DNA of 64,000 nucleotides from Candidatus Firestoneibacteriota bacterium (GCA_903861835.1 CAIOVX010000091.1:47610-111609), one strand, 5' to 3'. Positions 18,550 through 48,035 are shown, numbered from the stretch's first letter. Notes: generated from the sequence alone by a model not told the origin. Translations and numbers: made by a program.

Positions 18550-20235
18550 TTATTTTCCGAGTTTTGCGAGCAGTTTTATGGTTTCCTCAGCTATTTTTCC
18601 GCGGTATTCGTCCTGTTTAAGGTAATCAACTCCCGGAGTATCCTTCTTATGGTTATAAGGAATGTACCCCATTATTAGATTTATCATATTGGAAGCTTCT
18701 TTTGTATCTATTCCTTTAGCTTCTGCCTCTTTCATAACTTCGCTTAGTGTGTAAATGTACCTGTAGTCATCCGCTCCCTCGCGTATCCTCTCGAACCTGA
18801 CGCTTGGGTGGGCTTTCTTATCGTAGTAATAGACCAACCCCTGCTCGCGAGGGTACATTACCCCCGGATCCAGGCACCACGGGCGCACGCCCCTGAAACC
18901 GAACTTCCACATATAAAAACCGTGCCCCATCCTCTGGTCAATTCCGACGAAGGTCATCAAAGAAGGCTTTACGCGCAGGCTCTTCTCCCATTCAGGAAAC
19001 ATCTCGCCGTTAAATCCGGTCCAGTCTATTGCGGGAAACCCGGCATGCAGCGCAAACTCCTCGTGCCTGTTGAAAGTGGCAAGCGTCTCAACGCCGGTAG
19101 CCTTTATTTCCGAATAGTACTCTTCGATGCTCTTCATAAGTATTGTGAAATCTTTCGTGCCGCCCTCGCCGAAAGTGCTTCCGAGTTCCGTGGAGAGATA
19201 AAAAACGGTTCTTAGCCATTTATTCTTATCCGCGTTCGCCTTGACCTTGGTCACCAGCGCGGCTGTTTTGGCATAGGATTCACTGTTAAACATATTCAGC
19301 CCGTGCCCGTTTGGTCCGTAGCTGTTCTCAAGACTCAATCCGCCCTGGCAATGCGTGTTTGTATGAATAAATATTCCCGGCAGGCCGGCTTTTTTTGCCA
19401 GCTCCATATAGCGGTTCGCCTTAGTGAAATCCTCGCCCTCGGGCGCAAGCGCGTTGGTTATCTCCCCGGTATAATTATGCTCTCTGATGCACCTAAACTC
19501 CTCCGCCTGGCGCTCAAAATCCCAGGAACCAGACATTATACCGAGCCAGTTCATCCTGTCGGGAGGCGGATTCCTAAGCTTATAGGAAAGCACCCTTACT
19601 TCGACATTAATTTCAGCAGAATTTTTTCCTTCGGGCGCCACATTTATTTTTCCGCGATAGAGCCCGGCAGCTGTCTCTTCAGGAGGATGAACATTGATCC
19701 AGACCGCCTTTGGCACCCCGGGCGTCAGAGAAGTTATACTGCAGGTAAGCTCTAAGAGTTCCCCTTTCACGGTAACAAAGGTTGTCCCTACCGGGCGCAT
19801 AAGCACATTATTAATCTCAAAAGCCGCGGCCGGGAGGATGGCGCCCTCGCTGCTCTTAAATTCCCCGCAGGTTATTTTGATATTCTTAAGCGTTTCAAAA
19901 GGGTAGATACCGATAACAAAAGGTTCATATTCTCCGGGTGCCGCAAATAGTTTCAGGCTCTTAACCCCAAACTCCTCCGTTAAAGGAACCGTAGAGGCAG
20001 AAATATCAAGGAGGTAATTTCTGGAAAAAAGCGCGAACCCTGAACCTGAAACCGGCGCGCCATTTTCCTCTGCTATATTGACTTTCCCTATCTTCGTTTC
20101 AAGTTTGAGACTAGTGTACTTATCCCCGGTGTAACCATCCTGCAGCAGAGCGGCGGAAGACTTTGAAGAGACAAAATCACCGTCGCAAAGCAGCGCCGCC
20201 GGTATCAGCACGAACAACAAAGAGAACTTTTTCAT
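18550..20235 (-). CDS. Secreted glycoside-hydrolase-like protein, paralog A (possibly GH123/DUF4091-like; catalytic Asp replaced by Thr)
   Basis: Signal peptide from MKKFSLLFVL (start refined to the ATG at 20235). It shares the blocks GLYRGKINV...VEVRVLSYKL and GADDYRYIYTL with the ORFs at 41988 and 46254. The central motif is TELG where the paralogs have IDEP. Confidence 0.4.
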   Translation of the reverse strand: MKKFSLLFVLIPAALLCDGDFVSSKSSAALLQDGYTGDKYTSLKLETKIGKVNIAEENGAPVSGSGFALFSRNYLLDISASTVPLTEEFGVKSLKLFAAPGEYEPFVIGIYPFETLKNIKITCGEFKSSEGAILPAAAFEINNVLMRPVGTTFVTVKGELLELTCSITSLTPGVPKAVWINVHPPEETAAGLYRGKINVAPEGKNSAEINVEVRVLSYKLRNPPPDRMNWLGIMSGSWDFERQAEEFRCIREHNYTGEITNALAPEGEDFTKANRYMELAKKAGLPGIFIHTNTHCQGGLSLENSYGPNGHGLNMFNSESYAKTAALVTKVKANADKNKWLRTVFYLSTELGSTFGEGGTKDFTILMKSIEEYYSEIKATGVETLATFNRHEEFALHAGFPAIDWTGFNGEMFPEWEKSLRVKPSLMTFVGIDQRMGHGFYMWKFGFRGVRPWCLDPGVMYPREQGLVYYYDKKAHPSVRFERIREGADDYRYIYTLSEVMKEAEAKGIDTKEASNMINLIMGYIPYNHKKDTPGVDYLKQDEYRGKIAEETIKLLAKLGK

Positions 20236-20236
20236 C

Positions 20237-21937
20237 TCACAGCTCCAGTCTTTCAAGCGCTTTCTTGCCCCGAAGCATTGGCAGCGCGAAGGCCGCCGCC
20301 TGAACCAGCAGAAAGGCAAGAACAGCGAGACAGGCCCAAAGCAGGCTTTCGGTTCCGGCGAACAAATAAATCCCGCGCGTGTAATACAGATGCATAGGGT
20401 AGGCAAGCAGGAATTCCGAGACGCCGATATACCCGATGGCGAATATCATGTAGAGGATGCCTCCGTAACTCGTGGCTATTTCTGCGGTGTTTGCCGCGTC
20501 AAATTTCGGAAAAATCGCTCCCATGCCTATCCCCATGGCGGTCAGGCAAACGCTGAAGAAGAGGCCCATAACCGCGGAGATTATTCCAGTGATGATATCT
20601 ATTTTTACGAATATTGCAGACAAAATCACGAGTATCTCCGAAAGAAAAAGCAGAGGCCAGAAATTTATCCAAAACTTCTCTTTCAGAAACTCCCCGGGCG
20701 TCATCGGCGCCATGCGCACCACCCAGAAGCTCTTGCCCTCGATGCTTATTGAAGAAAAAACAAATCTGGCCGCGATTGAGGCAATCACAAACCCGGCGAA
20801 CCCCATTATGACCAGGAAGAGAACATCCTTGATTATGATGGAATAACCGGCGGGAAGTTTGGAAAGGTCTATCATGGAAATATTTGCGACATAGATAATA
20901 TTAATCGCGACAATAATCATGAGCTGCGGCCACTGGGTGGAATCCCTGATAAATACCAGGACATCCTTTATCACCATCTCCCTCACCGCGGGAGCCAGCC
21001 TTCCTAAGTATTTCCTGTAATCTATCCTGTCAAAAAACTTTTTCCGGTAACGCATGAGCTGGTTTTCAGCGGAATTCCACCAGCCGCGAAGGAAGATATC
21101 GCCTGAGACTGAGAGCATCAGCGTGAAACTCACGCCGGCCGCGGCCGCAAGAAAGCCCAGATATTTGAGCGCGTTAAAATAAGCGCCTGAAAGGAAACCA
21201 AAGACCGCTTGCGAGGCCCAGAAACTCGGGAGATACGGCGCCGAGGGGGCCTGAAGGGACGCGAGAAAGTCCTTAAAAATCATCTGCTCGTTCGGATTGG
21301 TTAGTTTCTCCGGCTGGAGCAGGCGGATGAAAACGAGAAGGGCGCAGACAACGGCTACGCTCAAGAAGACAAAGAAATCCCTTATCCTCTTGGCCGGAAA
21401 GATCCTCATCATTAACACGGTTAGCGTCACGCCAAGCGAAGAGACTATAAGCAGGAAGAGGCCCAGAGCGGCGAAACTTGCAAGAAAACCTGCAAGGCCG
21501 GACTTTAAAACCGCTGCGTACGCGGCAAAGATAGGCAGTCCCATAAAAAACACCATCCAGGAACTGTTGATGGTGACCTTAGAGAACCTGGAAAGAAAAA
21601 GCGCCCGCCTGTTAACCGGCAGAGACAACTGCAAGGACATATCGTCTGAGAGATAATAGGTCGCGATAGAGATAATTATATTGGAAAAGAGCAGCATGAA
21701 AAGAAACGTGAGGAAGACCATCGCCAAAAGTTTTTCAATAAGAACGCTGCCGACCCCGGGAATGTTCATAAAGGCCGCAAGCACCCGCCCCAATCCCCTG
21801 TACGCCCCGAAAAGAAAGAGAAATCCTATTAACGCGAGTACTGCCCCTCTTATTGCGCCTCTGCTTCCGGCCTTGAAAAATGAGTTCTTGACGGTCCTTG
21901 AGGTTATCCTTAGCAGCGCGAGCAGGTCAGCGGTCAT
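20237..21937 (-). CDS. Putative ABC exporter permease (multi-TM)
   Basis: 566 aa with about 12 predicted TM helices. It is translationally coupled to the upstream ABC ATPase by a 4-nt overlap, and its stop sits 1 nt from the start of paralog A. Confidence 0.55.
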   Translation of the reverse strand: MTADLLALLRITSRTVKNSFFKAGSRGAIRGAVLALIGFLFLFGAYRGLGRVLAAFMNIPGVGSVLIEKLLAMVFLTFLFMLLFSNIIISIATYYLSDDMSLQLSLPVNRRALFLSRFSKVTINSSWMVFFMGLPIFAAYAAVLKSGLAGFLASFAALGLFLLIVSSLGVTLTVLMMRIFPAKRIRDFFVFLSVAVVCALLVFIRLLQPEKLTNPNEQMIFKDFLASLQAPSAPYLPSFWASQAVFGFLSGAYFNALKYLGFLAAAAGVSFTLMLSVSGDIFLRGWWNSAENQLMRYRKKFFDRIDYRKYLGRLAPAVREMVIKDVLVFIRDSTQWPQLMIIVAINIIYVANISMIDLSKLPAGYSIIIKDVLFLVIMGFAGFVIASIAARFVFSSISIEGKSFWVVRMAPMTPGEFLKEKFWINFWPLLFLSEILVILSAIFVKIDIITGIISAVMGLFFSVCLTAMGIGMGAIFPKFDAANTAEIATSYGGILYMIFAIGYIGVSEFLLAYPMHLYYTRGIYLFAGTESLLWACLAVLAFLLVQAAAFALPMLRGKKALERLEL

Positions 21938-22698
21938 TTTTCCCCGCTGATGTAATTAAGCACTCCGGCAAGATCCGGCGCTCCGGTCAAACTGAGGAAG
22001 ATATCCTCAAGGTTTCTGCTTCCGCTCTTTGAGGACGCGCGCAGTTCTTCCATACTGCCCTTGGCTATAAGACCGGCGTTTTGGATTATGCCTATCGTGT
22101 CGCAGAGACTTTCCACTATCTCAAGACTGTGCGTGGAAATAAAGAGGGTCTTTCCGGCCTTTTTCAGATCCAAAAACATTTCTCTTACTATTTTGGCGCT
22201 CTTAGGATCAAGCCCGACCATCGGTTCGTCAATGATATAGATTTCCGGATCGTGAAGTATATTGGAAGCCATAACAAGTTTTTGCTTCATTCCGTGGGAG
22301 TAGCTCTCTATGAGTTCATCCCCCCACTTGTCTATCTCGAAGAGCGCGAGCAGCTCCGCCGCCTTTCTTTTTGAAGAGGTTTTATCTAACTTGAATACGC
22401 CTGCGATAAAATCAAGGAATTCCTTGCCGGTGAGTTTTTCATAGATGTACGGGCGGTCTGGAATGAAGCCGATTATTTTTTTTACGGAGACCGGGTCTTT
22501 CTGTATATCAAAACCGCCGACCAGGGCTTCACCGGAGGTGGGCTTCAAAAGGCCTGTCATTATCTTGATTGTAGTGGTCTTTCCCGCTCCGTTTGGGCCG
22601 AGAAACCCGAAAATCTCGCCCTTTTTAACGGTAATGGAAAGATTTTCCACAGCGGTGAATTTGCCGTACTTTTTTACCAGGTTTTTTAACTCTATCAT
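21934..22698 (-). CDS. ABC transporter ATP-binding protein
   Basis: Walker A GPNGAGKTTT, the ABC signature, and Walker B IIDEP. Confidence 0.85.
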   Translation of the reverse strand: MIELKNLVKKYGKFTAVENLSITVKKGEIFGFLGPNGAGKTTTIKIMTGLLKPTSGEALVGGFDIQKDPVSVKKIIGFIPDRPYIYEKLTGKEFLDFIAGVFKLDKTSSKRKAAELLALFEIDKWGDELIESYSHGMKQKLVMASNILHDPEIYIIDEPMVGLDPKSAKIVREMFLDLKKAGKTLFISTHSLEIVESLCDTIGIIQNAGLIAKGSMEELRASSKSGSRNLEDIFLSLTGAPDLAGVLNYISGEK

Positions 22699-22757
22699 AT
22701 AAAGATTTTAACACCGCCGCAGGGCCAATTCAAGGGGATAAGCTTTTGCTAAAGGAA

Positions 22758-25841: not shown

Positions 25842-25920
25842 TATTCTCCGGAAGACTCACCATTAACTGCCCTCATTGGCGTACAGAGGGCAGAGGGCTG
25901 AAGACCGTAAAATCCCGCTA

Positions 25921-26214: not shown

Positions 26215-26322
26215 ATATCCCCCTTGGCGCTGCTCGCGCCTTACGAGCGCAATTCACTTATTCTTCCATATTCAGTATAACCAATCGCCCATATAATGTC
26301 TATGCCGGCAGGCGCAAAAGGA

Positions 26323-26357
26323 AAGGGCGCGCCGTCAAGACGCGCCCTTGTTTTTTT
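26323..26357. terminator. Rho-independent terminator between alaS and the phasin-like gene
   Basis: A perfect 9-bp stem (AAGGGCGCG / CGCGCCCTT) with a 9-nt loop, followed by GTTTTTTT. Confidence 0.55.
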
Positions 26358-26364
26358 CTGCGTG

Positions 26365-29106: not shown

Positions 29107-29138
29107 TTTTGATATTTTAGCAGTTTACCCGAAAACTC

Positions 29139-38492: not shown

Positions 38493-39590
38493 TTATCTTT
38501 TTCCTTTCGGGGTGAATACCGGCTCAGCAGTTCTGAAAATACACCCCGTGTCGGCTTTAATGTCAATCACCGTGCAATACATCCTGCCGTCGACGGGATT
38601 ATAGGCAAGCCAGCTGGCCCTGTATTGAGGGGGAATGCCGTCTGTAAAAGCGCTCCAGGTACTCCCGCCGTCAGTCGACCTGGCAAAAACAGGCGTCTTT
38701 AGCCAGTCAACGCCGTTACCCGCATACAAGTACCCGTTCGGATCCTTTCTTAAAGCGCCCAGACCTTTCGAAGAACAACCTGAATCGTAAACCAGCTGCC
38801 ATGTCGCGCCGCGGTCGTTGGTCCTGTAAACACCCTGTATCATCTGATAGAACACATCTCCCTTGTCGTTGAACGCGATGTGCATCGCATCTGCTATCTG
38901 CGACCTTAATCCGGTCTTGGTCGGCACATGCTTCCAGGATCGCCCATTGTCAGTTGAAATAAAAACACTATTGCCGTCCACTTCAGACCCCATCCAGCAA
39001 TCGCCGGTAACCGGATTATATCCAAAACAGAACTCTGCCTGCCCGTGACCGATGCCTTCTCCGGCAAGCGAGCAGGAAACTCCGTGATCCGAGGAATAAT
39101 ACGGCCCCTCTCCCCAGCAAACGCCGAACAAAATATCTCCGTTGGGGAGAAAACCGGCGCCGTCAATGGCAGTGCGCGGATGCCCCCCCTTGAAGCCTTC
39201 GATCTTATTCCAGTTCCTGCCGCCGTCAACGGAACGGTAATAATAGGATACATTCTTTTTGGGAACGGTGCAGTCTATCTGGGACGCAATCAGGTATCCC
39301 GTATTCGGGTCGGCCTGGATGGTTGAAGCATGCCATTTATTGCCGGGATTTACGGCAAGGCCTGAGCCGTTAATGGAGGTCCAGGTCTTTCCGAAATCTT
39401 TGGAAACAAAAAAACCTGCTTCGGAGGAACAGGTGTAGAGATTACCCGAGACGTCGCATTCAATGCATCTTGTTTTCTTAACGCCGCCGGGAGCAGTCAC
39501 AGGCTCCCAGATGGCCGCTTTCACGAATAAAGCCGTGAATACAAACAGCATTACAAGTATCGCTCTAGGAATCACCATAAGATTTTTCAT
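38493..39590 (-). CDS. Secreted BNR/Asp-box repeat protein (sialidase-like beta-propeller)
   Basis: Signal peptide and at least 5 Asp-box repeats of the SxDxGxTW form (SKDFGKTW, SVDGGRNW, STDNGRSW, TNDRGATW, STDGGSTW). Confidence 0.7.
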   Translation of the reverse strand: MKNLMVIPRAILVMLFVFTALFVKAAIWEPVTAPGGVKKTRCIECDVSGNLYTCSSEAGFFVSKDFGKTWTSINGSGLAVNPGNKWHASTIQADPNTGYLIASQIDCTVPKKNVSYYYRSVDGGRNWNKIEGFKGGHPRTAIDGAGFLPNGDILFGVCWGEGPYYSSDHGVSCSLAGEGIGHGQAEFCFGYNPVTGDCWMGSEVDGNSVFISTDNGRSWKHVPTKTGLRSQIADAMHIAFNDKGDVFYQMIQGVYRTNDRGATWQLVYDSGCSSKGLGALRKDPNGYLYAGNGVDWLKTPVFARSTDGGSTWSAFTDGIPPQYRASWLAYNPVDGRMYCTVIDIKADTGCIFRTAEPVFTPKGKR

Positions 39591-39600
39591 TCAGCTCCGG

Positions 39601-39785
39601 GATATAGTTAAGACCTTAAGCTTCTGCCCTTCTGTCTTCCGTCTTCAGTCTTCTTCCTCCATCCACGCAGGCCCTTAACCATCTAACCATCCAACCATCC
39701 AACCCTCCAACCCTCCAACCCTCTAACCTTCCAACCATCCAACCCTCCAACCCTCCAACCCTCCAACCCTCTAACCTTCCAACCC
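39601..39785. repeat. Composite tandem-repeat element, copy 2: a 7-mer array, the core catccacgcaggcccttaaccatc, and an 8-mer array (ccaaccct / ccaaccat, about 14 units)
   Basis: It fills the whole spacer between the heparinase-like stop at 39786 and the BNR gene start at 39590. Confidence 0.8.
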
Positions 39786-41789
39786 TCATTTCTCAAACCT
39801 TCCCGCCACCACCTCATTCTTCATGTCACTCTTAACGCCGTTCACGAGGATATACCCGCCGGTATCTCCTTCAAAGAGCACCTCGTTGCCGTCAATACTC
39901 ACGCCTATGCCCTTGCCTTTCTGTATAAGCACCGGTTTTTTCTCTCCTGCGGTCGACAGCACATTCAGGAATACATCCTCGGCCTTTCCGACGCCGGGCT
40001 TTATCTCCACCCTCCACAAGTCTGCCTCGGGAGTCAGCTTGCTTTCCTTTTCCGGATAATTCTTGCCGCCGTAAGTGTACCCTTCCACCTTGTTTATAAC
40101 CGACTTTTCAGGCAGCAGCGCGTAGCAGTTCAGCGTTCCTTCTCCGTTCTTTACCGCGAATTCAGCGTTCTTTATTTCCGGCTCATTCTTGCAATGCAGC
40201 AGCCAGGTTTTCGCGTAATCCTTGTTCAGCGCCTCAACCCTGTCATAGATCACGAAGATTCCGGGGCGCAAAAACACTATCCGGCGTATATACTTGCTTA
40301 CTTTCCTGGAACTGTAGGCCTTTGTGCAGTCTCCCGTGAGATACATAAAGCCCGGGGTGTTTTCATAAGCGGTTATCTTGCCGCGGGAGAAAGTTTCCTT
40401 TTTGGCTTCCCATTCAGGCAGCGTCCCGACCACAGTCTCCCATTTCTTGGCCTGGCCGCCGTCATTCTCAAGTTCCTTCACGCCGCGGTAATTCTTCCAT
40501 TCCTCTCCCGGCATTAATACGAGCATGCAGTTGTGAGCGACAGTGCGCGTCAGCCAGTTTACCGCGTGAGGAGAACTCCAGGCGATATATTCCCCGCTCT
40601 CGGTCGCCAGCTGTTCTTTGCAGAAAATCTCAAAGTTCCCGGCCTCAAAATGCTGGTGCTGGTTCCAGTAGTCGGAACATTCAAACCTGAACCAGGTTGC
40701 GTCATCACCCCAACCGTCCCTTGCGTAGACCTTCCCGATGTCCTTCGTAATGTGAGCCAGAGGGAAGTCAGACAGGCCTTTGGGGGCGTCAGCAGGCCCT
40801 CCGTACAGAAAATCAAAAGCCCTCGACATCAGGTTAGAACCCGCGCGGTTCTTGCCCGCCGTGTATTTTGAAAGTTCCGAGCCCCCGAAGTATCTCGCGA
40901 TAACATTTCTCATATGGCGCGGGTATTCCCTGGCGCCGCTGTAGATATTTGCCCCGTCGCCTTCCATAGGGTAATTCTCGGCGCCGTAATCGGCGAATCC
41001 CGGATACGGCTGGAGCAGTTCGAAGGCAAGACGCTGATAAAAGAATTTTTGGCATTTCTTGAACCCGTCATAACCCTCTGCCATCCGCGCGAGTTCAAGC
41101 GCCTGTGTCAGGTGCCAGACAGAATGCCTCTGGTACCAGCCGCACTCCGTCCAGCCCCCTCCCGCCCCGTATTTATTGAGGACGGGAATGAGCTTGCTCT
41201 CGTAAAGCTCTAAAATGGCTTTGTCCCTGAAAGTTTTTGCTTTCGGGTTGTCATTCCAGGTCGCGTAGGCAATCCTAAGATAGGTAAGCATTTTTGACAT
41301 CGTAGAATTGTGAAACGCATTCTCGTCGTCGCGGTAGGAATCGTAGGTGGCATTCATCCAGTCAATTATTTTTTTGCGGTTTGAGTCTCCCAGCTCGTTA
41401 TAAAAAAAGTCAAAGACAAAAGCCGCGTTCGTAAGTTCTATCCAGGTATCCTGATGTTTATTGGAAGGACCTTTGTTTACAAGGTTCATCGTTTCGGCAA
41501 TAGTTTTATCTATTTTAGACTTGTCCAACCCCTCTACTGCCTGAGTGATACAGCGGAATTCAAGCGCGCTCGCGTTCCGGATCTCGCCGTAAACCCGCGG
41601 GTTCTCTTTAGCGAGAGCTTTAAGACGCTCTTTTGAGCCATAAAGGATTGGGTGCTTCCCGAGATCCTTAGACCACGCACCTGTCTCCACAACCGGATTT
41701 CCGGCCGGAATTTCCTGGGCAAAGAGCGGTCCGCTGAGAATACAGGCAAACGCGAGAAATTTTAGGACACTCTTAGATTTAAAGAGCAT
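39786..41789 (-). CDS. Heparinase II/III-like polysaccharide lyase family protein
   Basis: Signal peptide. It has an alpha/alpha-toroid N-terminal domain (WYQRHSVWHL...) and a beta-sandwich C-terminus containing the NQHQHFEAGNFEIF motif. 667 aa. Confidence 0.6.
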   Translation of the reverse strand: MLFKSKSVLKFLAFACILSGPLFAQEIPAGNPVVETGAWSKDLGKHPILYGSKERLKALAKENPRVYGEIRNASALEFRCITQAVEGLDKSKIDKTIAETMNLVNKGPSNKHQDTWIELTNAAFVFDFFYNELGDSNRKKIIDWMNATYDSYRDDENAFHNSTMSKMLTYLRIAYATWNDNPKAKTFRDKAILELYESKLIPVLNKYGAGGGWTECGWYQRHSVWHLTQALELARMAEGYDGFKKCQKFFYQRLAFELLQPYPGFADYGAENYPMEGDGANIYSGAREYPRHMRNVIARYFGGSELSKYTAGKNRAGSNLMSRAFDFLYGGPADAPKGLSDFPLAHITKDIGKVYARDGWGDDATWFRFECSDYWNQHQHFEAGNFEIFCKEQLATESGEYIAWSSPHAVNWLTRTVAHNCMLVLMPGEEWKNYRGVKELENDGGQAKKWETVVGTLPEWEAKKETFSRGKITAYENTPGFMYLTGDCTKAYSSRKVSKYIRRIVFLRPGIFVIYDRVEALNKDYAKTWLLHCKNEPEIKNAEFAVKNGEGTLNCYALLPEKSVINKVEGYTYGGKNYPEKESKLTPEADLWRVEIKPGVGKAEDVFLNVLSTAGEKKPVLIQKGKGIGVSIDGNEVLFEGDTGGYILVNGVKSDMKNEVVAGRFEK

Positions 41790-41987
41790 TGAGCCTCCTG
41801 TTTACTATTTACTGTCAAATCTGAACGGCACCGCAGACAGGCCTTCCGAACGGCAAAAAGGTTCCTCCGGTAATCCGCTGGTCACTGCGCCCGCAGTTGT
41901 ACTTTAGGCCTTGTTGCTTGATACAACAATGATACTGGAATGGTCAGCGTCTGCAGCAAAAATAATTTCGGTGTGCAAGCGAAGTCC

Positions 41988-43733
41988 CTACTTTTCCGCT
42001 GCCTCGAGTTCTATTATCTTATTGGCGACTTCCATCTTAAACACTTCCAGTTTCTCAAACGAGATAACCTCCTGCTTTAAAGCCGCGAGCGTGGTCCTGG
42101 TATCGGGTATAAGCGCGCCAAAGGACTCGAGCAGTTTTTTTGCAGCTCCTGCTTTTCCGGCGAGTTCAGGATTGGACTTCGCTTTTTCTATGAGTTGTTC
42201 AAGCGTCACAACATACCGCCGGTCATCAATCCCCTTTCTCATTGCTTCATAATTCACGGACGGCATAATGTCCTCGGTGTCATTTTCGCAAGGCCCGGTC
42301 AGGCACCAGTCAGGATCTCCTCCGTCAAGGTCATTCAAGGGGTCTCCGCTGTATGAATTGAAAGACCACATTTTCAAAGAAGAATAATTATTTTTCCAGG
42401 GAAAGAGCCCCGGCTCAAGCCTTGCGTGCAGAATACTTCCGCTGTCTATCCAGACATTGAGGCTGAGTCTTTTTCCATTGCCCAAGAGAAAAGCCTTGTC
42501 CAATTCCGGCCACAACGCGTAACTCCAGTTCACATCGGTATGTTGCGCGTAAAGCTTGTAAACATCCGGCCCGTTAAGAGTTTCCACGACTGTAACTCCC
42601 TCAATGGTCTTTAGCCACTTGATGAGCGGAGTCAGCTCCCGGCGCCGTTCTTCGCTGTTGCCGGGTTCATCGATTCCAAAATAAAATATTTCCACTTTTT
42701 CGCCGTACTTATCCTTAACCTGCTTGTTAAAGCGCTCTATCATCTTGCGCCCTTCGGAAACAAAGACAGGAGAATGCAATTTTGTTTTCAGCGCCGCGGC
42801 TATCGCATGCGAGAGCGGCTGCGCGTAGATCAAAAAGCTGCCATTCAGCCCTTTACTTAAAGCCAACTCGGCATCTTCTTCAAACCCCTTAAAATCTATT
42901 CCCTCCGCGGACACCTGCAGGTTCCTTAAACCTATATCGTAGCCGTAGACCCCGTGCTCTTTAAGGCTTTTTACGAAATTATCGTTCCTGATATTCGGAT
43001 CATCAAAAAACCACATATTGAATTTCTTCGGGGAAACGAGTTTTATCGGAAGGACTTCTATTTCTACCGGCACGCTTGCCGCCGCGCTGTTCGCCGGAGC
43101 AAACTCTATCGTGCCCTTGTAAAGGCCGGGCTTGGCGTCTTCAGGAATCTTTACGGTTATCCACCACTGGCGCGTCGGGCCGGCCTTTACCGCGCCCCAG
43201 AGTATTTTCTCCCCGGCAGGAATATCCATAGTATCCTTCTTCTCCATAAGCCAGGGGTTCAAACGGAAGATATGCGGACCGGTCCTTTTCGGCATATGCC
43301 AGACAGTCCGAGCTTCAAAGTTCTCAGGACCTATATTGTCCTTCCCGGAAGAAAGGCCGGAAGAGGAAACCTTTGCCGCTTTAAGATCTTTCAAAGGATA
43401 AACCGAGAATGTGAGGGGGATATACTCTCCCGGGCTGCCGAAAGACGCGCATTTCAGCCCGCTCTTTTCGGTAGGCACAGAGTTATGAAATATTTGTGCG
43501 GAATAATCATTGGAGAACAGGATGTAACCCCTTTCCTTCTCCCCGGCGGTTGCCGCTCTTATAGTGTCGTTCGCCTCGCGCACATCTTCTACAAATTTAC
43601 CGGTCTTGAGTATTATCTTTGTGGTTGTGTCCCGATCTTTTCTCTTCTTGTCTATCACTTCCTGTGACACGGCAGCGGAATAAGAAAGGCAGGCGAATGA
43701 CAGCAGAAGCGCGCAGATCAATACTCTTTTCAT
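41988..43733 (-). CDS. Secreted glycoside-hydrolase-like protein, paralog B (possibly GH123/DUF4091-like; contains the adjacent Asp-Glu motif IDEP)
   Basis: Signal peptide. It shares the blocks GLYKGTIEF...VEIEVLPIKL, FGIDEPGNS and GIDDRRYVVTL with the ORFs at 18550 and 46254. Confidence 0.4.
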   Translation of the reverse strand: MKRVLICALLLSFACLSYSAAVSQEVIDKKRKDRDTTTKIILKTGKFVEDVREANDTIRAATAGEKERGYILFSNDYSAQIFHNSVPTEKSGLKCASFGSPGEYIPLTFSVYPLKDLKAAKVSSSGLSSGKDNIGPENFEARTVWHMPKRTGPHIFRLNPWLMEKKDTMDIPAGEKILWGAVKAGPTRQWWITVKIPEDAKPGLYKGTIEFAPANSAAASVPVEIEVLPIKLVSPKKFNMWFFDDPNIRNDNFVKSLKEHGVYGYDIGLRNLQVSAEGIDFKGFEEDAELALSKGLNGSFLIYAQPLSHAIAAALKTKLHSPVFVSEGRKMIERFNKQVKDKYGEKVEIFYFGIDEPGNSEERRRELTPLIKWLKTIEGVTVVETLNGPDVYKLYAQHTDVNWSYALWPELDKAFLLGNGKRLSLNVWIDSGSILHARLEPGLFPWKNNYSSLKMWSFNSYSGDPLNDLDGGDPDWCLTGPCENDTEDIMPSVNYEAMRKGIDDRRYVVTLEQLIEKAKSNPELAGKAGAAKKLLESFGALIPDTRTTLAALKQEVISFEKLEVFKMEVANKIIELEAAEK

Positions 43734-44317
43734 TTCAGCTCCTTTTTGAAAAGAGACACTTTCAGTTTATCGGCATCTACAAGAACAGTTTCCTCGGAGA
43801 ATAGTTTGGCTTCAATTATGCGGGAAGCTCTTATCCAGCACGCTTCCTGAAATGAATCCCCGGACATTACCATCTTACCTTCATATTCCTCGTCTTCCGC
43901 GTATTTCTTAAGCTCCCCGACCCAGAGCGGATTAGGGGCGCCGCCGTCAAGGCTGGCGTAGATTCCGAAGATGGTATTGCCGTCGGATGATATGCCTGCC
44001 GAAATATAATACATAATTTTGTCCTGCGGCCCGAGGCTGTATTGTTTTAGCTCCTTATCCGCCGTATTCAACAGAAAAAGCCGCCCTCTTTTTATGAACA
44101 AAATCTTTGAAAATGCGGCGTCAGCGGTTACGCTCTTGATAAAATCTTCTTCCGCGCCGTCATATAGGGCCGTGGTCTTCCCTGTTGCATTATCCTTCAG
44201 TTCTATTTTGGACCCGCTCGCAATAAGCGTCTTACTGCCGCCGGAGTTCTCCTTCGCCGCTGCAGGCAGCGCCAAAACAGCAGAAAACGCGACAAACAGG
44301 AAAAAACATTTTATCAT
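43730..44317 (-). CDS. Secreted hypothetical protein, co-operonic with paralog B
   Basis: Signal peptide from MIKCFFLFVAF. The start is the ATG at 44317, which has a GGGAG RBS. There is a 4-nt overlap with the downstream gene. No recognisable domain. Confidence 0.4.
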   Translation of the reverse strand: MIKCFFLFVAFSAVLALPAAAKENSGGSKTLIASGSKIELKDNATGKTTALYDGAEEDFIKSVTADAAFSKILFIKRGRLFLLNTADKELKQYSLGPQDKIMYYISAGISSDGNTIFGIYASLDGGAPNPLWVGELKKYAEDEEYEGKMVMSGDSFQEACWIRASRIIEAKLFSEETVLVDADKLKVSLFKKELK

Positions 44318-44395
44318 CCTTATTCTCCCGGCGGGACTGCCCCGCTTAATGAATTTCTTTACGCACAAAAGTATCTTTCTTTAATACTTCCGGAA

Positions 44396-44620
44396 ACACA
44401 CCTTCTGTCCTCCACCTTACTGCGCATCCGCGCATCACTTCTGACTTCTGACTTCAGTCTTCCGTCCTTTGTCTTCCGTATTCAGGCCTCTTCATCCATC
44501 CACGCAGGCTCTTAATCATCCAAACATCCAACCTTCCAACCAGCCGCCATTCTGTCTTCTTGCCTCATCCCTTGCCGGCCCTTAAACATCCAACCCTCCA
44601 ACCCTCTGAACCTCCAAATC
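44396..44620. repeat. Composite tandem-repeat element, copy 3: cttactgcgcatc, a 7-mer array, the core catccatccacgcaggctcttaatcatc, and an 8-mer array
   Basis: It shares the core and both arrays with copies 1 and 2. It lies in the 5' region of the operon at 43730-44317 and 41988. Confidence 0.75.
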
Positions 44621-44996
44621 ATTGTTTCAGCAAATCCCCCATTTCCTTTTGCATTTGCGCGTTGAATTCACCGGCGATACCCACCATAAACTTGATGGAG
44701 ATTATGAGCAGAACAATTCCTATCCAAAACGAGATCCAGACCCAGAGTTTCGCTTTCTTTGAACTGACTTTAGCCTTTTCATGCAAACCAGCATTGAAGA
44801 ATGCATTTACCTTCAGGCCATATATAAAGGAAACAATCCCGGTTGGAATCAGAGAAAGTATCATGAGTACGGAGAGCCAGATGTAGGTTTTGGGTTTTAC
44901 AGGTTTTACGGTAAGATTCAGGAGGTCGCTTCCGCAGTACCGGCACTTGATGGCTTCATCCTGGATCTCTTCAGCGCAATACGGGCACTTCTTCAT
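44619..44996 (-). CDS. Zinc-ribbon membrane protein, hypothetical
   Basis: N-terminal CPYCx12CRYC zinc ribbon, then two TM helices. Confidence 0.4.
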
Positions 44997-45127
44997 TTGG
45001 GCTCCAGAGTTGAAACGGGTCTCCTATTATTGTACCACAATTTCCTCTGGCCGGAAAACTGCGGCAAACATTTATCCTGCAACACATATAGGCGCCCGCG
45101 CGTTTCAGCAAAAGAATCCTCTTCCGT

Positions 45128-46189
45128 TTATTTTTCTGGAGGCCATTTGTGCTCTCTTACCGCCTCGCACATTGCGACATAACCTTCTGCCGGGACGTAA
45201 TCAGGAATGGAATTACCGCAGCCTATCGCCAGTCCGCGGGCGTTTGACGCCGAATCTATTACTTCATTGACATATTTTTTTATCCTGTCAGGGCTTTCAA
45301 GACAGATAATGTTCATATCAATGCCGCCAAAGAGTCCGATTCTGTCTCCGTAAGTATCGGACCATTTCGAGAAAGGAGCTATGGCATCCTCATTTGAATG
45401 CTTCGCGTCTATGCCGGCTACCGATATTATTTCGTCCATAACCTCAAATATGCAACCGCAGGAATGAAGCAGGAAAGGCTTGTTATGCTTGTGAACAAGG
45501 CTTACTATTTTTTTGTACTCCGGTATTACGAGTTCTCTGATATCCGCGGGATCAAGCAGAGGGCCGCTCTTAAACCCCAGGTCGTCCCCGAACCTGCAAA
45601 CCGCGTACGAATCAGAGTGCTTTTCAAGAAACTCGGACCAGATCTTAGAGAGCATCTCGCCGGTTCTAGAAAACAACGCCTTGTACGTTTCAGGGTCATC
45701 CGCCTTCAGGTAAACGAGGTCCGTGTAAGGCACGAAATCCTGAACGCATTCAAAAATCCCGTTTCCGACACCGCCGACGGCTTTCATCCCATCAGGCAAA
45801 GTTTCTTTAAGCGCTTCATAAAACCCAGCCGACTTTTCACGGAACTTCCTAACCGGCTCATTCCAGTCGTAACTCTGCAGGTCCCGCATATTCCGGATAA
45901 GCGGCTTGCCTTTCCCTATAAGCCCCTTCCCGCCCTGAATAAACTCCGTGACGCAGCATTCAAAAGGATAGATATCATACCCCAGTTTTATTGAGCAGGC
46001 GAAAGCGTTGCGGAGGAACTCCTTGATGTCTTGCTTGTCTCCTGAGATAAGGCCGGCAAACTTCTTATTAATAATATTTTCCTGTACTCGGGCGCTTATT
46101 GAGTGGTCATAGATAGGGAGGCGCATCGGCCTTTTATTTCCGGCGGCGTCAAGAATATTTCTGTAATCCGGCGCAAACACTTTTGGCAT
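45128..46189 (-). CDS. Uroporphyrinogen decarboxylase (URO-D)-family protein
   Basis: 353 aa TIM-barrel URO-D-like blocks (FGDDLG...PLL, LHSCG). Its function here is unknown. Confidence 0.5.
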   Translation of the reverse strand: MPKVFAPDYRNILDAAGNKRPMRLPIYDHSISARVQENIINKKFAGLISGDKQDIKEFLRNAFACSIKLGYDIYPFECCVTEFIQGGKGLIGKGKPLIRNMRDLQSYDWNEPVRKFREKSAGFYEALKETLPDGMKAVGGVGNGIFECVQDFVPYTDLVYLKADDPETYKALFSRTGEMLSKIWSEFLEKHSDSYAVCRFGDDLGFKSGPLLDPADIRELVIPEYKKIVSLVHKHNKPFLLHSCGCIFEVMDEIISVAGIDAKHSNEDAIAPFSKWSDTYGDRIGLFGGIDMNIICLESPDRIKKYVNEVIDSASNARGLAIGCGNSIPDYVPAEGYVAMCEAVREHKWPPEK

Positions 46190-46253
46190 ATGGCCTTCTC
46201 CCGGGGACGGTATCGCCTCCCGCGTGTATTATTCAAACCTTTATGGATTTATG

Positions 46254-48035
46254 CTATTTCATATTATCTATCGCAATAATCAACGCGGCCAGCTTCTCCC
46301 TCATTTTGTCAAGTTTTTCGCCGCCGTATTTTTTCAGTGTTTCCTCTCCGACAGTCTCGGCTTCCCTGACATCGCCGTTATCATTTCCAAAAGCGAAAGA
46401 CTTTATGCTCTCGAGGTAGCGCGCCGCGGCTATTACCTCCGGAGCGGTTTTATTCGCGGCATTTTCCACCTTTTTTGACAGCGTGTAGATATATCTAAAA
46501 TCATTCACGCCCTCGGAACTTCTCAGCCATCTTAGAGTAGGGATGTAAGGCCCTTCCTTGGAAAGTATTACGGCGTAGTTTACGGGAAATTGCGCCATTG
46601 TGTTGAACTTGTCCCCGCTAAAATACCAGAACTGAACGTGTCCTTTCGCGCTTAACTGGAATACCTGAAGCCCGAATTGATACCGGCCGTAGCCGTCATT
46701 ATACAGATAGACCATATTACCGTTCTTCAGAGTTTCTCTCGTCAGCTTCTCCGAGAGGGATATGCCGTGGGTCATAATCATAGGAGTCTTTGAGCCCTGC
46801 TGCCAGTAAAGGGCCCTTTTTGTCTTGTCTTCAAACCTCGGCCCTCCGTCGTCTCTTTCATAGGAAGGAAGAGCCGGCAGCCCCGCCGCCGCATGCAGAG
46901 GGAAGAGGTTCTCAAGGTCCCAATAGGTCCTTGCCAGGGGCCTGGCGTTATCAGTGTCAATTTCTCTCGGCTCGTCTATCATTATCTGTATTTCCGGCCA
47001 GCCTCCTTTCTGCATCCTCTCTTTTATTTGAACCAACATATCTTTGTAAGCCTTATTAAAGCGCTGATCATAGTATTTACAGCCCATCCTGTCCACTAAA
47101 TCGTTCGGGAGACCGGTCATTTCTATAATCCATCTCTTATGCCCGTATTTCTTCAACAACTGCGCGTTCTTCTCTATATTGGTGAAGTCAATTTCCACTC
47201 CGGCCGGCGTAAACTTAAGCGCGGAGTTTATTTTGCCGTGCATTACATTCATTCCGCGCTCTTTCAGCTCCATAAGCATCTTCTCTAATGTATTTACGTC
47301 CTTTGAGCCGAAGTCATAATAATTGAATGAACCAAAATAATACTCATCTGAAAAAGTTTCGAATTTCACAGGAAGTACGTTTACTTCAAGCCCCATTTCC
47401 GAAGCCTTCTTGCCGCCTGACACGGAAATTGCGCCCTTGTACTTGCCGGGAACGGCGCCCTCCGGGACTGAGATTATCAGATAAAACAGGCGGGGCGTTT
47501 CTTTAAGGCAAACTGCCTCGTTTGCCGGCACTGCGTATTTCCCCTTACATATCCAGCTGATTCCTTCACGATCATAGTCGTATTTCACGGCATTTACCGA
47601 AATACTCTGCCCGGAAATAACTTTCCCTTCCGACCCGGTCAAATCACCGGCTATTGCCCTTATTTTCGCTATATCTTCAAGCGGATAGACCCCAAGGACT
47701 ACTATCCTTTTCTCGCCGGGAGAGGCCGCGCAGTTTATGCCTCCCTTAAGCATGCTTTTTGACGGAACAAAATTGGGATAAATATCATCGGTGCAATTGG
47801 ATTCAAAAATCGCATAGCCCCTTGACGTATCATTGGCAGAAGGAATAAACTTTTCGGAGAATTCCCTGAAAACTTCATATACTTTTCCGGTGCGCTTCAT
47901 TAATTTCAGCGTGGTCACCGAGTCTTTCGGCATATCAGCCCTGTAAATATCCATGGCCTTCTTCTCAAGATCTTCCTGCCCGAAGAGGGCTGCCGCAAAA
48001 CACAACGCAAGTAAAACAAGAATATTCTTTTTCAT
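46254..48035 (-). CDS. Secreted glycoside-hydrolase-like protein, paralog C (possibly GH123/DUF4091-like; contains the IDEP motif)
   Basis: Signal peptide. It shares the blocks KYKGAISV...LEVNVLPVKF, IMIDEPREID and GVNDFRYIYTL with the ORFs at 18550 and 41988. Confidence 0.4.
   Translation of the reverse strand: MKKNILVLLALCFAAALFGQEDLEKKAMDIYRADMPKDSVTTLKLMKRTGKVYEVFREFSEKFIPSANDTSRGYAIFESNCTDDIYPNFVPSKSMLKGGINCAASPGEKRIVVLGVYPLEDIAKIRAIAGDLTGSEGKVISGQSISVNAVKYDYDREGISWICKGKYAVPANEAVCLKETPRLFYLIISVPEGAVPGKYKGAISVSGGKKASEMGLEVNVLPVKFETFSDEYYFGSFNYYDFGSKDVNTLEKMLMELKERGMNVMHGKINSALKFTPAGVEIDFTNIEKNAQLLKKYGHKRWIIEMTGLPNDLVDRMGCKYYDQRFNKAYKDMLVQIKERMQKGGWPEIQIMIDEPREIDTDNARPLARTYWDLENLFPLHAAAGLPALPSYERDDGGPRFEDKTKRALYWQQGSKTPMIMTHGISLSEKLTRETLKNGNMVYLYNDGYGRYQFGLQVFQLSAKGHVQFWYFSGDKFNTMAQFPVNYAVILSKEGPYIPTLRWLRSSEGVNDFRYIYTLSKKVENAANKTAPEVIAAARYLESIKSFAFGNDNGDVREAETVGEETLKKYGGEKLDKMREKLAALIIAIDNMK

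What the first reader, a model, noticed from the sequence alone, without database searches (positions are those of the whole stretch)
18550..48035. Three paralogous secreted ~560-590-aa proteins (possibly GH123/DUF4091-like) in different operon contexts; two keep an Asp-Glu (IDEP) motif and one has TEL
The ORFs at 18550-20235, 41988-43733 and 46254-48035 share a signal peptide and conserved blocks. One is a beta-sandwich-like G(L/K)Y(K/R)G.I...VxVLxxK(L/F) segment. Another is a central hydrophobic strand followed by (D/T)E(P/L). The third is a C-terminal G(A/I/V)(D/N)D(Y/R/F)RY(I/V)(Y/V)TL segment. Paralogs B and C carry adjacent Asp-Glu residues (FGIDEP, MIDEP). That is the arrangement of the catalytic dyad in GH123 beta-N-acetylgalactosaminidases, a family I recall as containing DUF4091. 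Paralog A has TELG at that position, so it may be catalytically divergent or repurposed.

B and C sit in a glycan-catabolic island with a heparinase II/III-like lyase, a BNR sialidase-like propeller, a GH4 enzyme, a URO-D-family protein and an AraC regulator. A sialate O-acetylesterase lies at 57629. Paralog A is instead the last gene of an operon with an ABC ATPase and a putative 12-TM ABC exporter permease. Together this points to host-glycan or mucin-type glycoconjugate foraging by an uncultured anaerobe.
Basis: partly seen in the sequence, partly recalled or inferred. Interest (0 to 1): 0.6.

Follow-up and report, generated by a model that had tools for sequence, protein, structure and literature searches.

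The report
Three divergent GH123-like secreted glycosidases
A freshwater Candidatus Firestonebacteria genome encodes three very distantly related exported enzymes with the GH123 beta-N-acetylgalactosaminidase fold: two keep that family's Asp-Glu catalytic pair, and the third belongs to a conserved branch that replaced the Asp with Thr/Ser and changed other pocket residues, so it probably does different chemistry.

Summary
Three minus-strand ORFs (A 18550-20235, B 41988-43733, C 46254-48035) are homologous at 23-27% identity (E 3e-30 to 3e-15). All start with signal-peptide-like N-termini and carry every quoted motif.

B and C are probably exported, substrate-assisted beta-HexNAc-ases of new distant GH123 subfamilies.

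A is not a one-off mutant. T/S-E defines a clade of 27 representatives. Glu is invariant, Asp and a pocket Tyr are lost, and an Arg is gained at beta8. dN/dS is 0.08. That points to changed chemistry, not decay.

The organism is an environmental Candidatus Firestonebacteria, so mucin or host foraging is unsupported. The ABC-operon link of A holds only in orthologs of 85% identity or more. One B-ortholog locus suggests glycosphingolipid-glycan breakdown.

The parts
18550..20235 (-). Paralog A: 561-aa exported GH123-like protein of the Asp-less T/S-E clade
19186..19191 (-). Codons for T349-E350 of A, the position of the GH123 catalytic D-E
   Evidence: Translation LSTELG. The column aligns with BvGH123 'MDE' and NgaDssm 'LADEP'. 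It lies at the end of predicted strand 343-349. T or S occurs in 17 of 17 A-clade sequences and E in all.
18883..18885 (-). Codon for R451 of A, a clade-specific Arg two residues before the conserved pocket Trp (W453)
   Evidence: Translation GVRPW. A basic residue occurs here in 100% of 27 T/S-E sequences, 5% of 144 D-E sequences and 0% of 13 G/A-E sequences. It sits just after the short strand 449-450 of the model.
41988..43733 (-). Paralog B: 581-aa exported GH123-like protein with D355-E356
42666..42671 (-). Codons for D355-E356 of B
   Evidence: Translation GIDEP. D-E is invariant in the B clade.
46254..48035 (-). Paralog C: 593-aa exported GH123-like protein with D354-E355
   Evidence: ORF. 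Pfam N-domain hits are below cutoff. The C-clade profile hits NgaCa at E 1.3e-9 and BvGH123 at E 1.6e-8. No structure was predicted for C.
46971..46976 (-). Codons for D354-E355 of C
   Evidence: Translation MIDEP. D-E is invariant in 12 of 12 C-clade sequences.
43730..44368 (-). Small secreted partner ORF whose stop overlaps the start of B. It is about 196 aa from the internal Met and 212 aa from the TTG.
   Evidence: It shares 38% identity (E 7e-31) with the 171-aa ORF directly upstream of the B ortholog in L007. No Pfam family matches.
20237..22698 (-). ABC_tran_2 permease (20237-21937) and ABC ATPase (21934-22698) immediately upstream of A. The permease stop is 1 nt from A's ATG.
   Evidence: PF16949 at E 1e-96 and PF00005 at E 8e-27. 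The order is kept in L001, L015, L016 and L017 only.
38493..50550 (.). Glycan island around B and C. Minus strand: GH4 (48097-49473), C, URO-D-like (45128-46189), CD225/zinc-ribbon membrane protein (44619-44996), small partner, B, heparinase II/III-like (39786-41789), BNR/Sortilin-type propeller (38493-39590). Plus strand, divergent: AraC regulator (49672-50550).
   Evidence: Pfam. A sigma-70-like site matching 11 of 12 positions lies at 49617-49589 in the divergent intergenic region (consensus match only). The island is flanked by housekeeping genes.

Best explanation
All three genes encode exported two-domain proteins: an N-terminal beta-sandwich, a (beta/alpha)8 barrel and a C-terminal helical bundle. 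They are remote members of the GH123 beta-N-acetylgalactosaminidase superfamily, which CAZy now treats as one large family with distant subfamilies. They represent three old lineages of a very large and mostly unannotated branch of that superfamily. They are not recent duplicates.

B and C keep the consecutive Asp-Glu at the C-terminal end of barrel strand beta4. The most likely reading (inferred) is that they are extracellular or periplasmic retaining beta-N-acetylhexosaminidases, probably directed at beta-GalNAc, that use substrate-assisted catalysis. In that mechanism the Asp orients and polarises the substrate's own 2-acetamido group, which attacks C1 to form an oxazolinium intermediate. 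The Glu first protonates the leaving group and then activates water. Both genes lie in one same-strand gene string next to a divergently transcribed AraC-type regulator gene. The string also carries a GH4 enzyme, a heparinase II/III-like protein, a BNR propeller and a URO-D-like protein. This fits stepwise breakdown of a complex environmental glycoconjugate.

A belongs to a separate conserved clade with a coordinated change of pocket residues. The acid/base Glu is retained. The Asp is replaced by Thr or Ser, and the following Pro by Leu or Ile. The Tyr at the end of beta7, a substrate-contacting residue in characterised GH123 enzymes, is lost. An invariant Arg appears at the end of beta8. A is under strong purifying selection. 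It is therefore most likely still a functional glycan-processing protein. It cannot run the GH123 mechanism as known. My best guess, with low confidence, is a glycosidase acting on a sugar that lacks the participating acetamido group or carries an anionic group.

Shown here: homology, fold, motif alignment, clade structure, selection and gene order. Inferred: enzymatic activity, substrate and mechanism.

The confidence of 0.6 is for the whole statement. It is about 0.95 for GH123-superfamily homology and fold, about 0.6 for B and C as beta-HexNAc-ases, and about 0.4 for A as an active enzyme with changed chemistry.
For: Homology:
- The family profile hits BvGH123 at E 1.6e-17, NgaDssm at E 3.6e-17 over nearly the full length, NgaCa at 1e-14 and CpNga123 at 3e-11.
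- Each clade's own profile is also significant: A 1e-8, B 7e-5, C 1.3e-9.

Fold:
- Model A has pLDDT 91.7 and model B 89.3.
- Foldseek places all 22 top hits in GH123 and Groups 1-4 (E 1e-27 to 1e-21, TM 0.54-0.69); the next hits have E 1e-10 and TM below 0.36.

Catalytic pair:
- The xE column aligns on BvGH123 'MDE' and NgaDssm 'LADEP' and follows strand beta4 in both models.
- The roles of Asp (acetamido stabiliser) and Glu (acid/base), and the near-dead D-to-N/E mutants, come from PMC11087588.

Family breadth:
- The profile finds 11,223 cluster representatives at E<=1e-3 and 1,584 at E<=1e-30.
- Of 58 close relatives, 58 hit PF22680 and 25 hit PF13320, and many are fused to CBMs.

A clade:
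- T or S in 17 of 17 sequences and Glu invariant.
- One contiguous NJ clade of 27 T/S-E sequences sits next to a G/A-E group.
- Correlated changes: S/T348 93%, L/I351, loss of the beta7 Tyr, R451 100% against 5%.
- Clade members P0098 (48.9 bits) and P0067 (27.9 bits) pass the PF13320 cutoff.
- dN/dS is 0.08-0.10.

Context:
- Pfam on the island.
- The B ortholog in L007 sits beside GH42, a melibiase-like protein, Ceramidase_alk and GH116.
- Classical GH123 enzymes cut Gb4 and GA2 glycolipid glycans (PMC12856340).
Against: - PF13320 fails for A, B and C as single sequences.
- Only part of the nine residues reported as strictly conserved across GH123 and Groups 1-4 is kept. B lacks the equivalents of Y392, G427, Y466 and R478. 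C lacks Y466, and has Tyr for W115 and Phe for W431. A lacks D327 and Y392. D95 could not be mapped. So even B and C may differ in specificity or stability determinants.
- No model coordinates were available. Pocket geometry and the position of R451 are inferred from sequence register and secondary structure only.
- C was not modelled.
- The NJ tree has no support values and uses sequences of about 25% identity.
- The glycolipid context comes from one ortholog locus and is not reproduced in the window.
- No biochemical data exist for any member of these clades.
Confidence: 0.6

Rival explanations
1. A and its T/S-E clade are non-catalytic pseudo-enzymes. They would be glycan-binding proteins that kept the GH123 scaffold, as chitinase-like lectins kept the GH18 scaffold. 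B and C would be the only active hydrolases.
For: The Asp is essential in characterised relatives: D-to-N and D-to-E mutants show little or no activity (PMC11087588). A also lacks the substrate-contacting Tyr at beta7. No conserved carboxylate appears at the end of beta7 or elsewhere that could act as a classical nucleophile. The clade is expanded to at least 8 loci in one MAG, as is common for binding or surface proteins.
Against: The acid/base Glu is invariant in all 27 clade members and in 196 of 200 family sequences. Pseudo-glycosidases usually lose it. The lost residues are replaced by new invariant ones (R451, S/T348), which is not drift. dN/dS is 0.08, though binding proteins can also be constrained.
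Confidence: 0.25
2. A is still a beta-N-acetylhexosaminidase. The Thr/Ser hydroxyl, or another residue reaching in from a different loop, would take over positioning of the acetamido group, as Asn does in GH85.
For: Other substitutions at this position, such as N-E (4 sequences), occur in the same broad family. From my own knowledge, GH85 enzymes work with Asn-Glu. E393 and D404 are enriched in the T/S-E clade and might reach the pocket.
Against: A hydroxyl cannot stabilise the oxazolinium charge. The Tyr that usually supports this chemistry is lost at the same time, and a cationic Arg is gained. That is the opposite of what an oxazolinium-forming site needs.
Confidence: 0.12
3. B and/or C are glycosidases of the GH123 fold but are not specific for HexNAc. 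The D-E pair would be retained while the substrate differs, for example another 2-acylamido sugar or an endo-acting, oligosaccharide-releasing mode on a polysaccharide.
For: B lacks four and C lacks one to three of the nine residues conserved in all characterised groups, including substrate-contacting ones. The best structural matches are the cleft-type, oligosaccharide-releasing NgaDssm and NgaCa, not the exo-acting pocket types. Neighbours include a heparinase II/III-like protein and GH4.
Against: Every characterised enzyme with this fold and a D-E pair acts on beta-GalNAc or beta-HexNAc (PMC11087588). The D-E-P motif is strictly kept in both clades.
Confidence: 0.3
4. The resemblance to GH123 is only a generic TIM-barrel glycosidase resemblance, and the three proteins form an unrelated family.
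For: PF13320 is below threshold for all three. Identity to solved structures is only 11-17%.
Against: Sequence profiles alone reach E 1e-17. The N-terminal sandwich, the barrel and the C-terminal GxxDY helix all align in order. There is a large score gap to every other GH family. Intermediate relatives pass PF13320.
Confidence: 0.03

Closest known systems
NgaDssm (Group 3 GH123, deep-sea metagenome; PDB 8K2J/8K2K), an oligosaccharide- and monosaccharide-releasing beta-N-acetylgalactosaminidase
   Different: Identity is only 13-16%. A has T-E. A and B lack the beta7 Tyr, and B and C lack the VYPG Tyr. The window proteins add an N-terminal helical segment of about 45 residues and an invariant R-x-x-x-G motif after beta7.
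NgaCa (Group 1 GH123 'prototype', Cohnella abietis; PDB 8K2F/8K2G), an oligosaccharide-releasing beta-GalNAc-ase with an open cleft
   Different: Identity is 15-16%. The activity of the window proteins is untested.
Classical GH123: NgaP (Paenibacillus), CpNga123 (PDB 5FQE), BvGH123 (PDB 5L7R)
   Different: The classical enzymes are exo-acting pocket types with extra loops. The Pfam catalytic model built around them does not reach A, B or C.
GH85 endo-beta-N-acetylglucosaminidases and GH18 chitinase-like lectins, as mechanistic analogies for an altered assisting residue (from my own knowledge, not tested here)
   Same: Both come from substrate-assisted families in which the catalytic set is altered. 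GH85 has Asn instead of Asp and remains active. Chi-lectins lost catalysis but still bind glycans.
   Different: Both have a different fold or clan. Chi-lectins lose the Glu, whereas the A clade keeps the Glu and loses the Asp. No precedent for Thr/Ser-Glu with a gained Arg was found.

Membership tests
GH123 superfamily (CAZy GH123 sensu lato, including Groups 1-4 of Sumida et al. 2024) | Architecture: an N-terminal beta-sandwich followed by a (beta/alpha)8 barrel that contains the DUF4091 region | tested here: met
GH123 superfamily | Pfam GH123 N-terminal domain (PF19543 or PF22680) above the gathering score | tested here: inconclusive
   A passes PF19543 (39.3 bits against 22). B passes PF22680 (32.4 against 27). 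C fails both (18.3 and 21.1 bits). The C-clade profile still hits NgaCa and BvGH123 at E 1e-9 and 1e-8.
GH123 superfamily | Pfam PF13320 (DUF4091 / GH123_cat) above the gathering score of 23.1 bits | tested here: not met
   A scores 11.9 bits and B 11.2 bits, and C has no hit. Among relatives, 25 of 58 match at E<=1e-3. The T/S-E clade members P0098 (48.9 bits) and P0067 (27.9 bits) pass. The three proteins therefore lie at the edge of the model, not outside the homologous family.
GH123 superfamily | Consecutive catalytic Asp-Glu (DE motif) at the end of beta4 | tested here: met
   This row covers B (D355-E356) and C (D354-E355). The pair is invariant in their clades and aligns with the D-E of BvGH123 and NgaDssm.
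GH123 superfamily | Consecutive catalytic Asp-Glu (DE motif), tested for paralog A | tested here: not met
   A has T349-E350. T or S occurs in 17 of 17 A-clade sequences and in all 27 members of the wider clade.
GH123 superfamily | The other seven residues strictly conserved across GH123 and Groups 1-4 (NgaLy D95, W115, Y392, G427, W431, Y466, R478) | tested here: inconclusive
   In the order W115 / Y392 / G427 / W431 / Y466 / R478, the profile alignment gives:
- A: W / V / G / W / Y / R
- B: W / I / S / W / G / N
- C: Y / Y / G / F / L / R

D95 could not be placed reliably; even BvGH123 is shifted by one column there. The mapping is by sequence only, with no structural superposition.
GH123 superfamily | Retaining beta-N-acetylgalactosaminidase or beta-hexosaminidase activity by substrate-assisted catalysis, with thiazoline inhibition | not testable with these tools
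   This needs enzyme assays.
Clan GH-A type retaining glycosidases, considered for A | Acid/base Glu after beta4 plus a conserved nucleophile Glu after beta7 | tested here: not met

The most novel reading that the evidence does not exclude
The T/S-E clade, which includes paralog A and possibly the neighbouring G/A-E group, is a catalytically active lineage in which the GH123 scaffold has left substrate-assisted HexNAc chemistry. It would keep the acid/base Glu and use the gained beta8 Arg and the small hydroxyl residues to bind a different sugar, possibly an anionic one or one without an acetamido group. That would be a new activity and mechanism within GH123, or a new CAZy (sub)family, expanded to eight or more copies per genome in Candidatus Firestonebacteria.
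Probability: 0.35. Interest if true: 0.7.

Novelty: new variant of a known kind. Interest (0 to 1): 0.5.

Why it matters
GH123 was recently widened from three exo-beta-GalNAc-ases to a large family found in all domains of life. Every characterised member still uses the Asp-Glu pair.

This locus adds two points. First, a branch with thousands of cluster representatives is largely invisible to the Pfam catalytic-domain model, so routine CAZyme annotation misses it. Second, inside that branch an old and strongly constrained clade has lost the assisting Asp, keeps the Glu and gains an Arg. If active, it would show how a substrate-assisted glycosidase scaffold is re-tooled for other chemistry. It would also point to an unknown glycan that Candidatus Firestonebacteria invest many paralogs in.

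The B-ortholog gene set of ceramidase-like, GH116, GH42-like and alpha-galactosidase-like genes also suggests glycosphingolipid-glycan breakdown by an environmental candidate phylum. That idea can be tested directly.

B and C taken alone are ordinary: new distant members of a known enzyme family.

Tried and rejected
- **Single-sequence Pfam and PDB searches.** PF13320 was not significant. phmmer against PDB was marginal (E about 0.0025). This was resolved with profiles and folds.
- **Classical nucleophile after beta7, or another compensating carboxylate, in the A clade.** None is convincingly conserved. E393 and D404 are enriched, but their location is unknown.
- **Functional link between A and the ABC_tran_2 transporter.** The gene order is kept only in orthologs of 85% identity or more (L001, L015-L017). 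It is absent from loci with 41-50% orthologs, which instead show GH38, AP_endonuc_2 with GFO/IDH/MocA, GH42M or unannotated neighbours. ABC-2-type genes do recur near two other A-type genes (L002, L013). I treat this as unproven.
- **Host or mucin ecology.** Rejected on taxonomy.
- **Recent duplication of A, B and C.** Rejected. Each is as distant from the other two as from hundreds of other family members.
- **Taxonomy of the non-Firestonebacteria T/S-E proteins.** Cluster look-up returned no names, and the context of P0070 was uninformative.
- **AFDB Foldseek.** The library was unavailable.
- **Literature on DUF4091, GH123 or Firestonebacteria glycoside hydrolases.** No report of an Asp-less GH123 was found.
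- **Pfam on the small neighbouring proteins.** Nothing was significant.
- **Model coordinates.** They are not exposed, so no residue-level superposition or pocket analysis was possible.


Full report
**1. The observation**

Three ORFs lie on the minus strand at the stated coordinates. A (18550-20235) is 561 aa, B (41988-43733) is 581 aa and C (46254-48035) is 593 aa. For A a longer TTG-initiated ORF exists, but it would overlap the upstream permease gene. The ATG at 20235 gives a typical signal-peptide start, has a GGAG nine bases upstream, and is the start called for the 100%-identical database protein P0011.

BLASTP shows real but remote homology:
- A-B: 26% identity over the full length, E 3e-30
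- B-C: 23% identity over the full length, E 2e-24
- A-C: 27% identity over the N-terminal half, E 3e-15, plus the C-terminal motif

A six-frame profile search finds no fourth member in the window.

**2. What the proteins are**

Single-sequence Pfam is ambiguous. The GH123 N-terminal domain models pass their cutoffs for A (PF19543, 39.3 bits) and B (PF22680, 32.4 bits) but not for C. The catalytic-domain model PF13320 (formerly DUF4091) gives only 11-12 bits against a cutoff of 23.1. Single-sequence searches of PDB are marginal (E about 0.0025).

Deeper methods settle it:
- A profile of the three proteins plus 31 homologs (A1) hits BvGH123 (E 1.6e-17), NgaDssm (E 3.6e-17, nearly full length), NgaCa (1e-14) and CpNga123 (3e-11). 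It hits nothing else meaningful.
- Profiles of each clade alone are also significant: 1e-8, 7e-5 and 1.3e-9.
- AlphaFold2 models of A (pLDDT 91.7, pTM 0.91) and B (pLDDT 89.3, pTM 0.89) show an N-terminal helical segment, a beta-sandwich, an eight-stranded barrel and a C-terminal helical bundle.
- For A, the 22 best Foldseek hits in PDB are all GH123 or the Group 1-4 beta-N-acetylgalactosaminidases (E 1e-27 to 1e-21, TM 0.54-0.69). The next hits drop to E 1e-10 with TM below 0.36.

The proteins therefore have the GH123 fold and are homologous to GH123.

**3. The catalytic pair**

Sumida et al. 2024 (PMC11087588) describe the GH123 mechanism. The consecutive D-E motif comprises the stabiliser of the substrate's 2-acetamido group (Asp) and the acid/base (Glu). 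It is in the same structural position in all five groups. D-to-N and D-to-E mutants have little or no activity.

In the HMMER alignments the family's xE column falls on BvGH123 '...IAMDE' and NgaDssm '...LADEP'. In both models it directly follows the fourth barrel strand: 343-349 in A and 347-352 in B. The BvGH123 pair ends at chain residue 362, which matches D361/E362 as I recall them from the literature. I did not verify that numbering in a paper.

The Glu is invariant in all 34 aligned sequences (E350 in A). The preceding residue is Asp in all 5 B-clade and all 12 C-clade sequences, and Thr (14) or Ser (3) in all 17 A-clade sequences. I could not superpose coordinates because the models are not exposed.

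**4. Position in the family**

An exhaustive profile search finds 11,223 50%-identity cluster representatives at E<=1e-3 and 1,584 at E<=1e-30. Many are full-length matches at E 1e-70 to 1e-100. Of 58 such relatives, all match PF22680, 41 match PF19543 and 25 match PF13320 (best E 7.8e-13). Many carry CBM4/9, CBM9, CBM11, galactose-binding-like or laminin-G modules. A, B and C therefore sit in a large, carbohydrate-active branch that grades into DUF4091 but is poorly covered by its model.

[quoted passage not shown] A, B and C are each only about 25% identical to one another and to most other members. They are old lineages, not recent paralogs.

Sumida et al. report nine residues as strictly conserved across GH123 and Groups 1-4. 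The three proteins keep only part of this set:

| Residue (NgaLy numbering) | A | B | C |
|---|---|---|---|
| W115 | W | W | Y |
| D327 | T | D | D |
| E328 | E | E | E |
| Y392 | V | I | Y |
| G427 | G | S | G |
| W431 | W | W | F |
| Y466 | Y | G | L |
| R478 | R | N | R |

D95 could not be placed. Conversely, this branch has its own near-invariant signature: R435 and G439 after beta7, D490 and Y493 in the helix after beta8, and PGEYEP and GxYxG in the sandwich.

**5. The A clade is a remodelled lineage, not a one-off mutant**

Among 203 aligned family sequences the Glu is nearly universal. The preceding residue is Asp in 147, Thr in 21, Ser in 7, Gly in 11 and Asn in 4, with a few others.

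In a rough NJ tree without support values, all 27 T/S-E sequences form one contiguous group. It comprises 18 from the Firestonebacteria A clade (A itself, its identical database copy P0011 and 16 homologs) and 9 other metagenomic representatives, several of which are 930-980 aa. This group sits next to a group of about 14 G/A-E sequences.

Two members of the T/S-E group pass the PF13320 cutoff: P0098 at 48.9 bits and P0067 at 27.9 bits. The clade is thus formally inside DUF4091. It is probably part of the 6% of DUF4091 proteins that Sumida et al. noted as lacking the DE motif.

The substitution is accompanied by correlated changes:
- Ser or Thr at the preceding position in 93%
- Leu or Ile instead of the Pro after the Glu
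- loss of the Tyr at the end of beta7, which is present in 76% of D-E sequences and is one of the substrate-contacting residues of characterised enzymes
- Leu instead of Tyr two residues after the pocket Trp
- a basic residue, Arg451 in A, two residues before that Trp in 100% of T/S-E sequences, against 5% of D-E and 0% of G/A-E sequences

R451 lies at the C-terminal end of the short strand 449-450, which is the catalytic face of the barrel.

A is under strong purifying selection against its 85-87% orthologs (dN/dS 0.08-0.10 at dS about 1). No conserved carboxylate follows beta7, so a simple switch to a clan GH-A-type two-carboxylate mechanism is not evident. I read this as neofunctionalisation of the -1 site. 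The alternative, a non-catalytic glycan-binding protein, remains open.

**6. Organism and context**

All named homologs are from Candidatus Firestonebacteria MAGs. A scan of one genome per GTDB species with the A-clade alignment returns 12 loci. All are Candidatus Firestonebacteria, and eight of them are in the single MAG RIFOXYA2_FULL_40_8. From the record names (RIFOXY/GWA2, AM-lipid, BUCK21) I interpret the sources as groundwater and stratified lakes. I did not check metadata. A rubrerythrin, desulfoferrodoxin, rubredoxin and flavin-reductase cluster at 14.1-16.5 kb fits an anaerobe. Host-mucin foraging is not supported.

B and C lie in one minus-strand string: GH4, C, URO-D-like, CD225/zinc-ribbon membrane protein, small ORF, B, heparinase II/III-like, BNR/Sortilin-type propeller. 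This string is divergent from an AraC gene, with a strong sigma-70-like match in the shared intergenic region. Housekeeping genes flank it. The BNR protein does not pass the sialidase-type model. The SASA esterase at 57629 belongs to a PBP2-RodA-radical SAM string, not to the island.

A is translationally coupled to an ABC_tran_2 permease and ATPase, and ychF follows 22 nt downstream with no terminator-like site. This arrangement is conserved only among orthologs of 85% identity or more. More distant A-type genes sit next to GH38, sugar-phosphate isomerase-like and GFO/IDH/MocA genes, GH42M or unannotated secreted proteins.

**7. Leads from related loci**

The 51%-identical B ortholog P0004 (L007) is embedded in a cluster of these genes, in order: another GH123-like gene, a GH42-like gene, a small ORF, the B ortholog, a small ORF, a melibiase/GH31-like alpha-galactosidase, an amidohydrolase, a neutral-ceramidase-like protein (45 bits, N-terminal part of the model only) and GH116 (201 bits).

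Classical GH123 enzymes remove the terminal GalNAc of Gb4 (GalNAc-beta-1,3-Gal-alpha-1,4-Gal-beta-1,4-Glc-Cer) and of GA2. The L007 set would supply every later step of that pathway. This is one locus and is only suggestive.

The 212-aa ORF whose stop overlaps B's start (43730-44368) is homologous to the ORF directly upstream of P0004 (38% identity, E 7e-31), so the small-ORF/B pair is a conserved module. A second, unrelated family of secreted proteins of about 180-226 aa flanks A-, B- and C-type genes in L003, L007 and L008. Similar-sized unannotated ORFs lie next to them in L009 and L011; their homology was not tested. This family has no member in the window. Neither small family has a Pfam match.

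**8. Verdict**

The ecological reading and some context claims are not supported.

B and C are new distant members of a known enzyme family, and their activity is inferred, not shown. A represents an uncharacterised, conserved, Asp-less variant of that family with a remodelled active site. That is the part worth experimental follow-up. Overall interest is moderate.

Noticed in passing
window 43730-44368 (-); L007 4163-4678: A small secreted ORF overlaps the start of B. It is 212 aa from the TTG and about 196 aa from the internal Met. It shares 38% identity (E 7e-31) with the ORF directly upstream of the B ortholog in another Firestonebacteria contig. The small-ORF/B pair is therefore a conserved two-gene module of unknown role. 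No Pfam family matches.
   Followed up: partly
L003 6236-6772, 8694-9314, 9417-9947, 13829-15206; L007 6465-7094; L008 8820-10035 and 18333-18905; L009 9788-10342; L011 9793-10344: A second family of signal-peptide-bearing proteins of about 180-226 aa lies next to A-, B- and C-type GH123-like genes in several Firestonebacteria loci. Homology was shown by BLASTP only for the L003, L007 and L008 ORFs. The L009 and L011 ORFs are listed by size and position. The family has no member in this window. Pfam gives only weak hints (CBM_11, Ig-like). These proteins might be detached binding or anchoring subunits.
   Followed up: partly
L007 118-14141: This gene set surrounds the B ortholog: a GH123-like gene, a GH42-like gene, a melibiase/GH31-like gene, an amidohydrolase, a neutral-ceramidase-like gene and GH116. 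It matches the successive steps of globo-series glycosphingolipid breakdown. That is unexpected for an environmental candidate phylum.
   Followed up: partly
family-wide (proteins P0063, P0065, P0103, P0105, P0124, P0133, P0134, P0162, P0189, P0194 and others): Besides T/S-E, the broad family contains a G/A-E group of about 14 representatives that keeps the beta7 Tyr and lacks the Arg. Small N-E, E-E and Q-E groups also occur. The Glu is almost never lost, so the Asp position seems to be a recurrent site of change.
   Followed up: partly
window 38493-39590; L008 11892-14369; L011 about 12900-13600: BNR/Sortilin-Vps10-type propeller proteins recur next to C-type genes in other loci, at about 24% identity to the window's 365-aa protein. 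They fail the sialidase-type BNR_2 model.
   Followed up: partly
L026 9921-10565; L024 1582-2238; window 45128-46189 and 48097-49473: Homologs of the window's URO-D-like protein (40% identity) and GH4 enzyme (39% identity) also lie near A-type paralogs in RIFOXYA2_FULL_40_8. Both gene types recur with GH123-like genes across clades. The role of a URO-D-family protein in a glycan locus is unexplained.
   Followed up: no
window 57629-63903 (-): The SASA-family esterase (57629-59155) is the last gene of a tightly packed string: PBP2 transpeptidase, RodA/FtsW, a radical-SAM/B12/DUF2344 protein, then SASA. It may act on cell-envelope glycans and not on sialic acids.
   Followed up: no
window 14088-16449 (-): This is a cluster for oxygen detoxification in anaerobes: rubrerythrin, desulfoferrodoxin, an FMN reductase, rubredoxin and a flavin reductase. 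It supports an anaerobic lifestyle.
   Followed up: no
window 49589-49617 (-): A near-consensus sigma-70-like site (TTGACA, 17-nt spacer, TATACT; 11 of 12 positions) lies in the divergent intergenic region between the AraC gene and GH4. It could drive the whole string from GH4 to the BNR gene. This is a consensus match only.
   Followed up: no
L002 3130-4642; L013 1-2003; window 20237-22698: ABC-2-type permease and ATPase genes lie within a few kb of A-type genes in three otherwise unrelated contexts. The permeases belong to different Pfam families. This could be coincidence or a loose functional association.
   Followed up: partly
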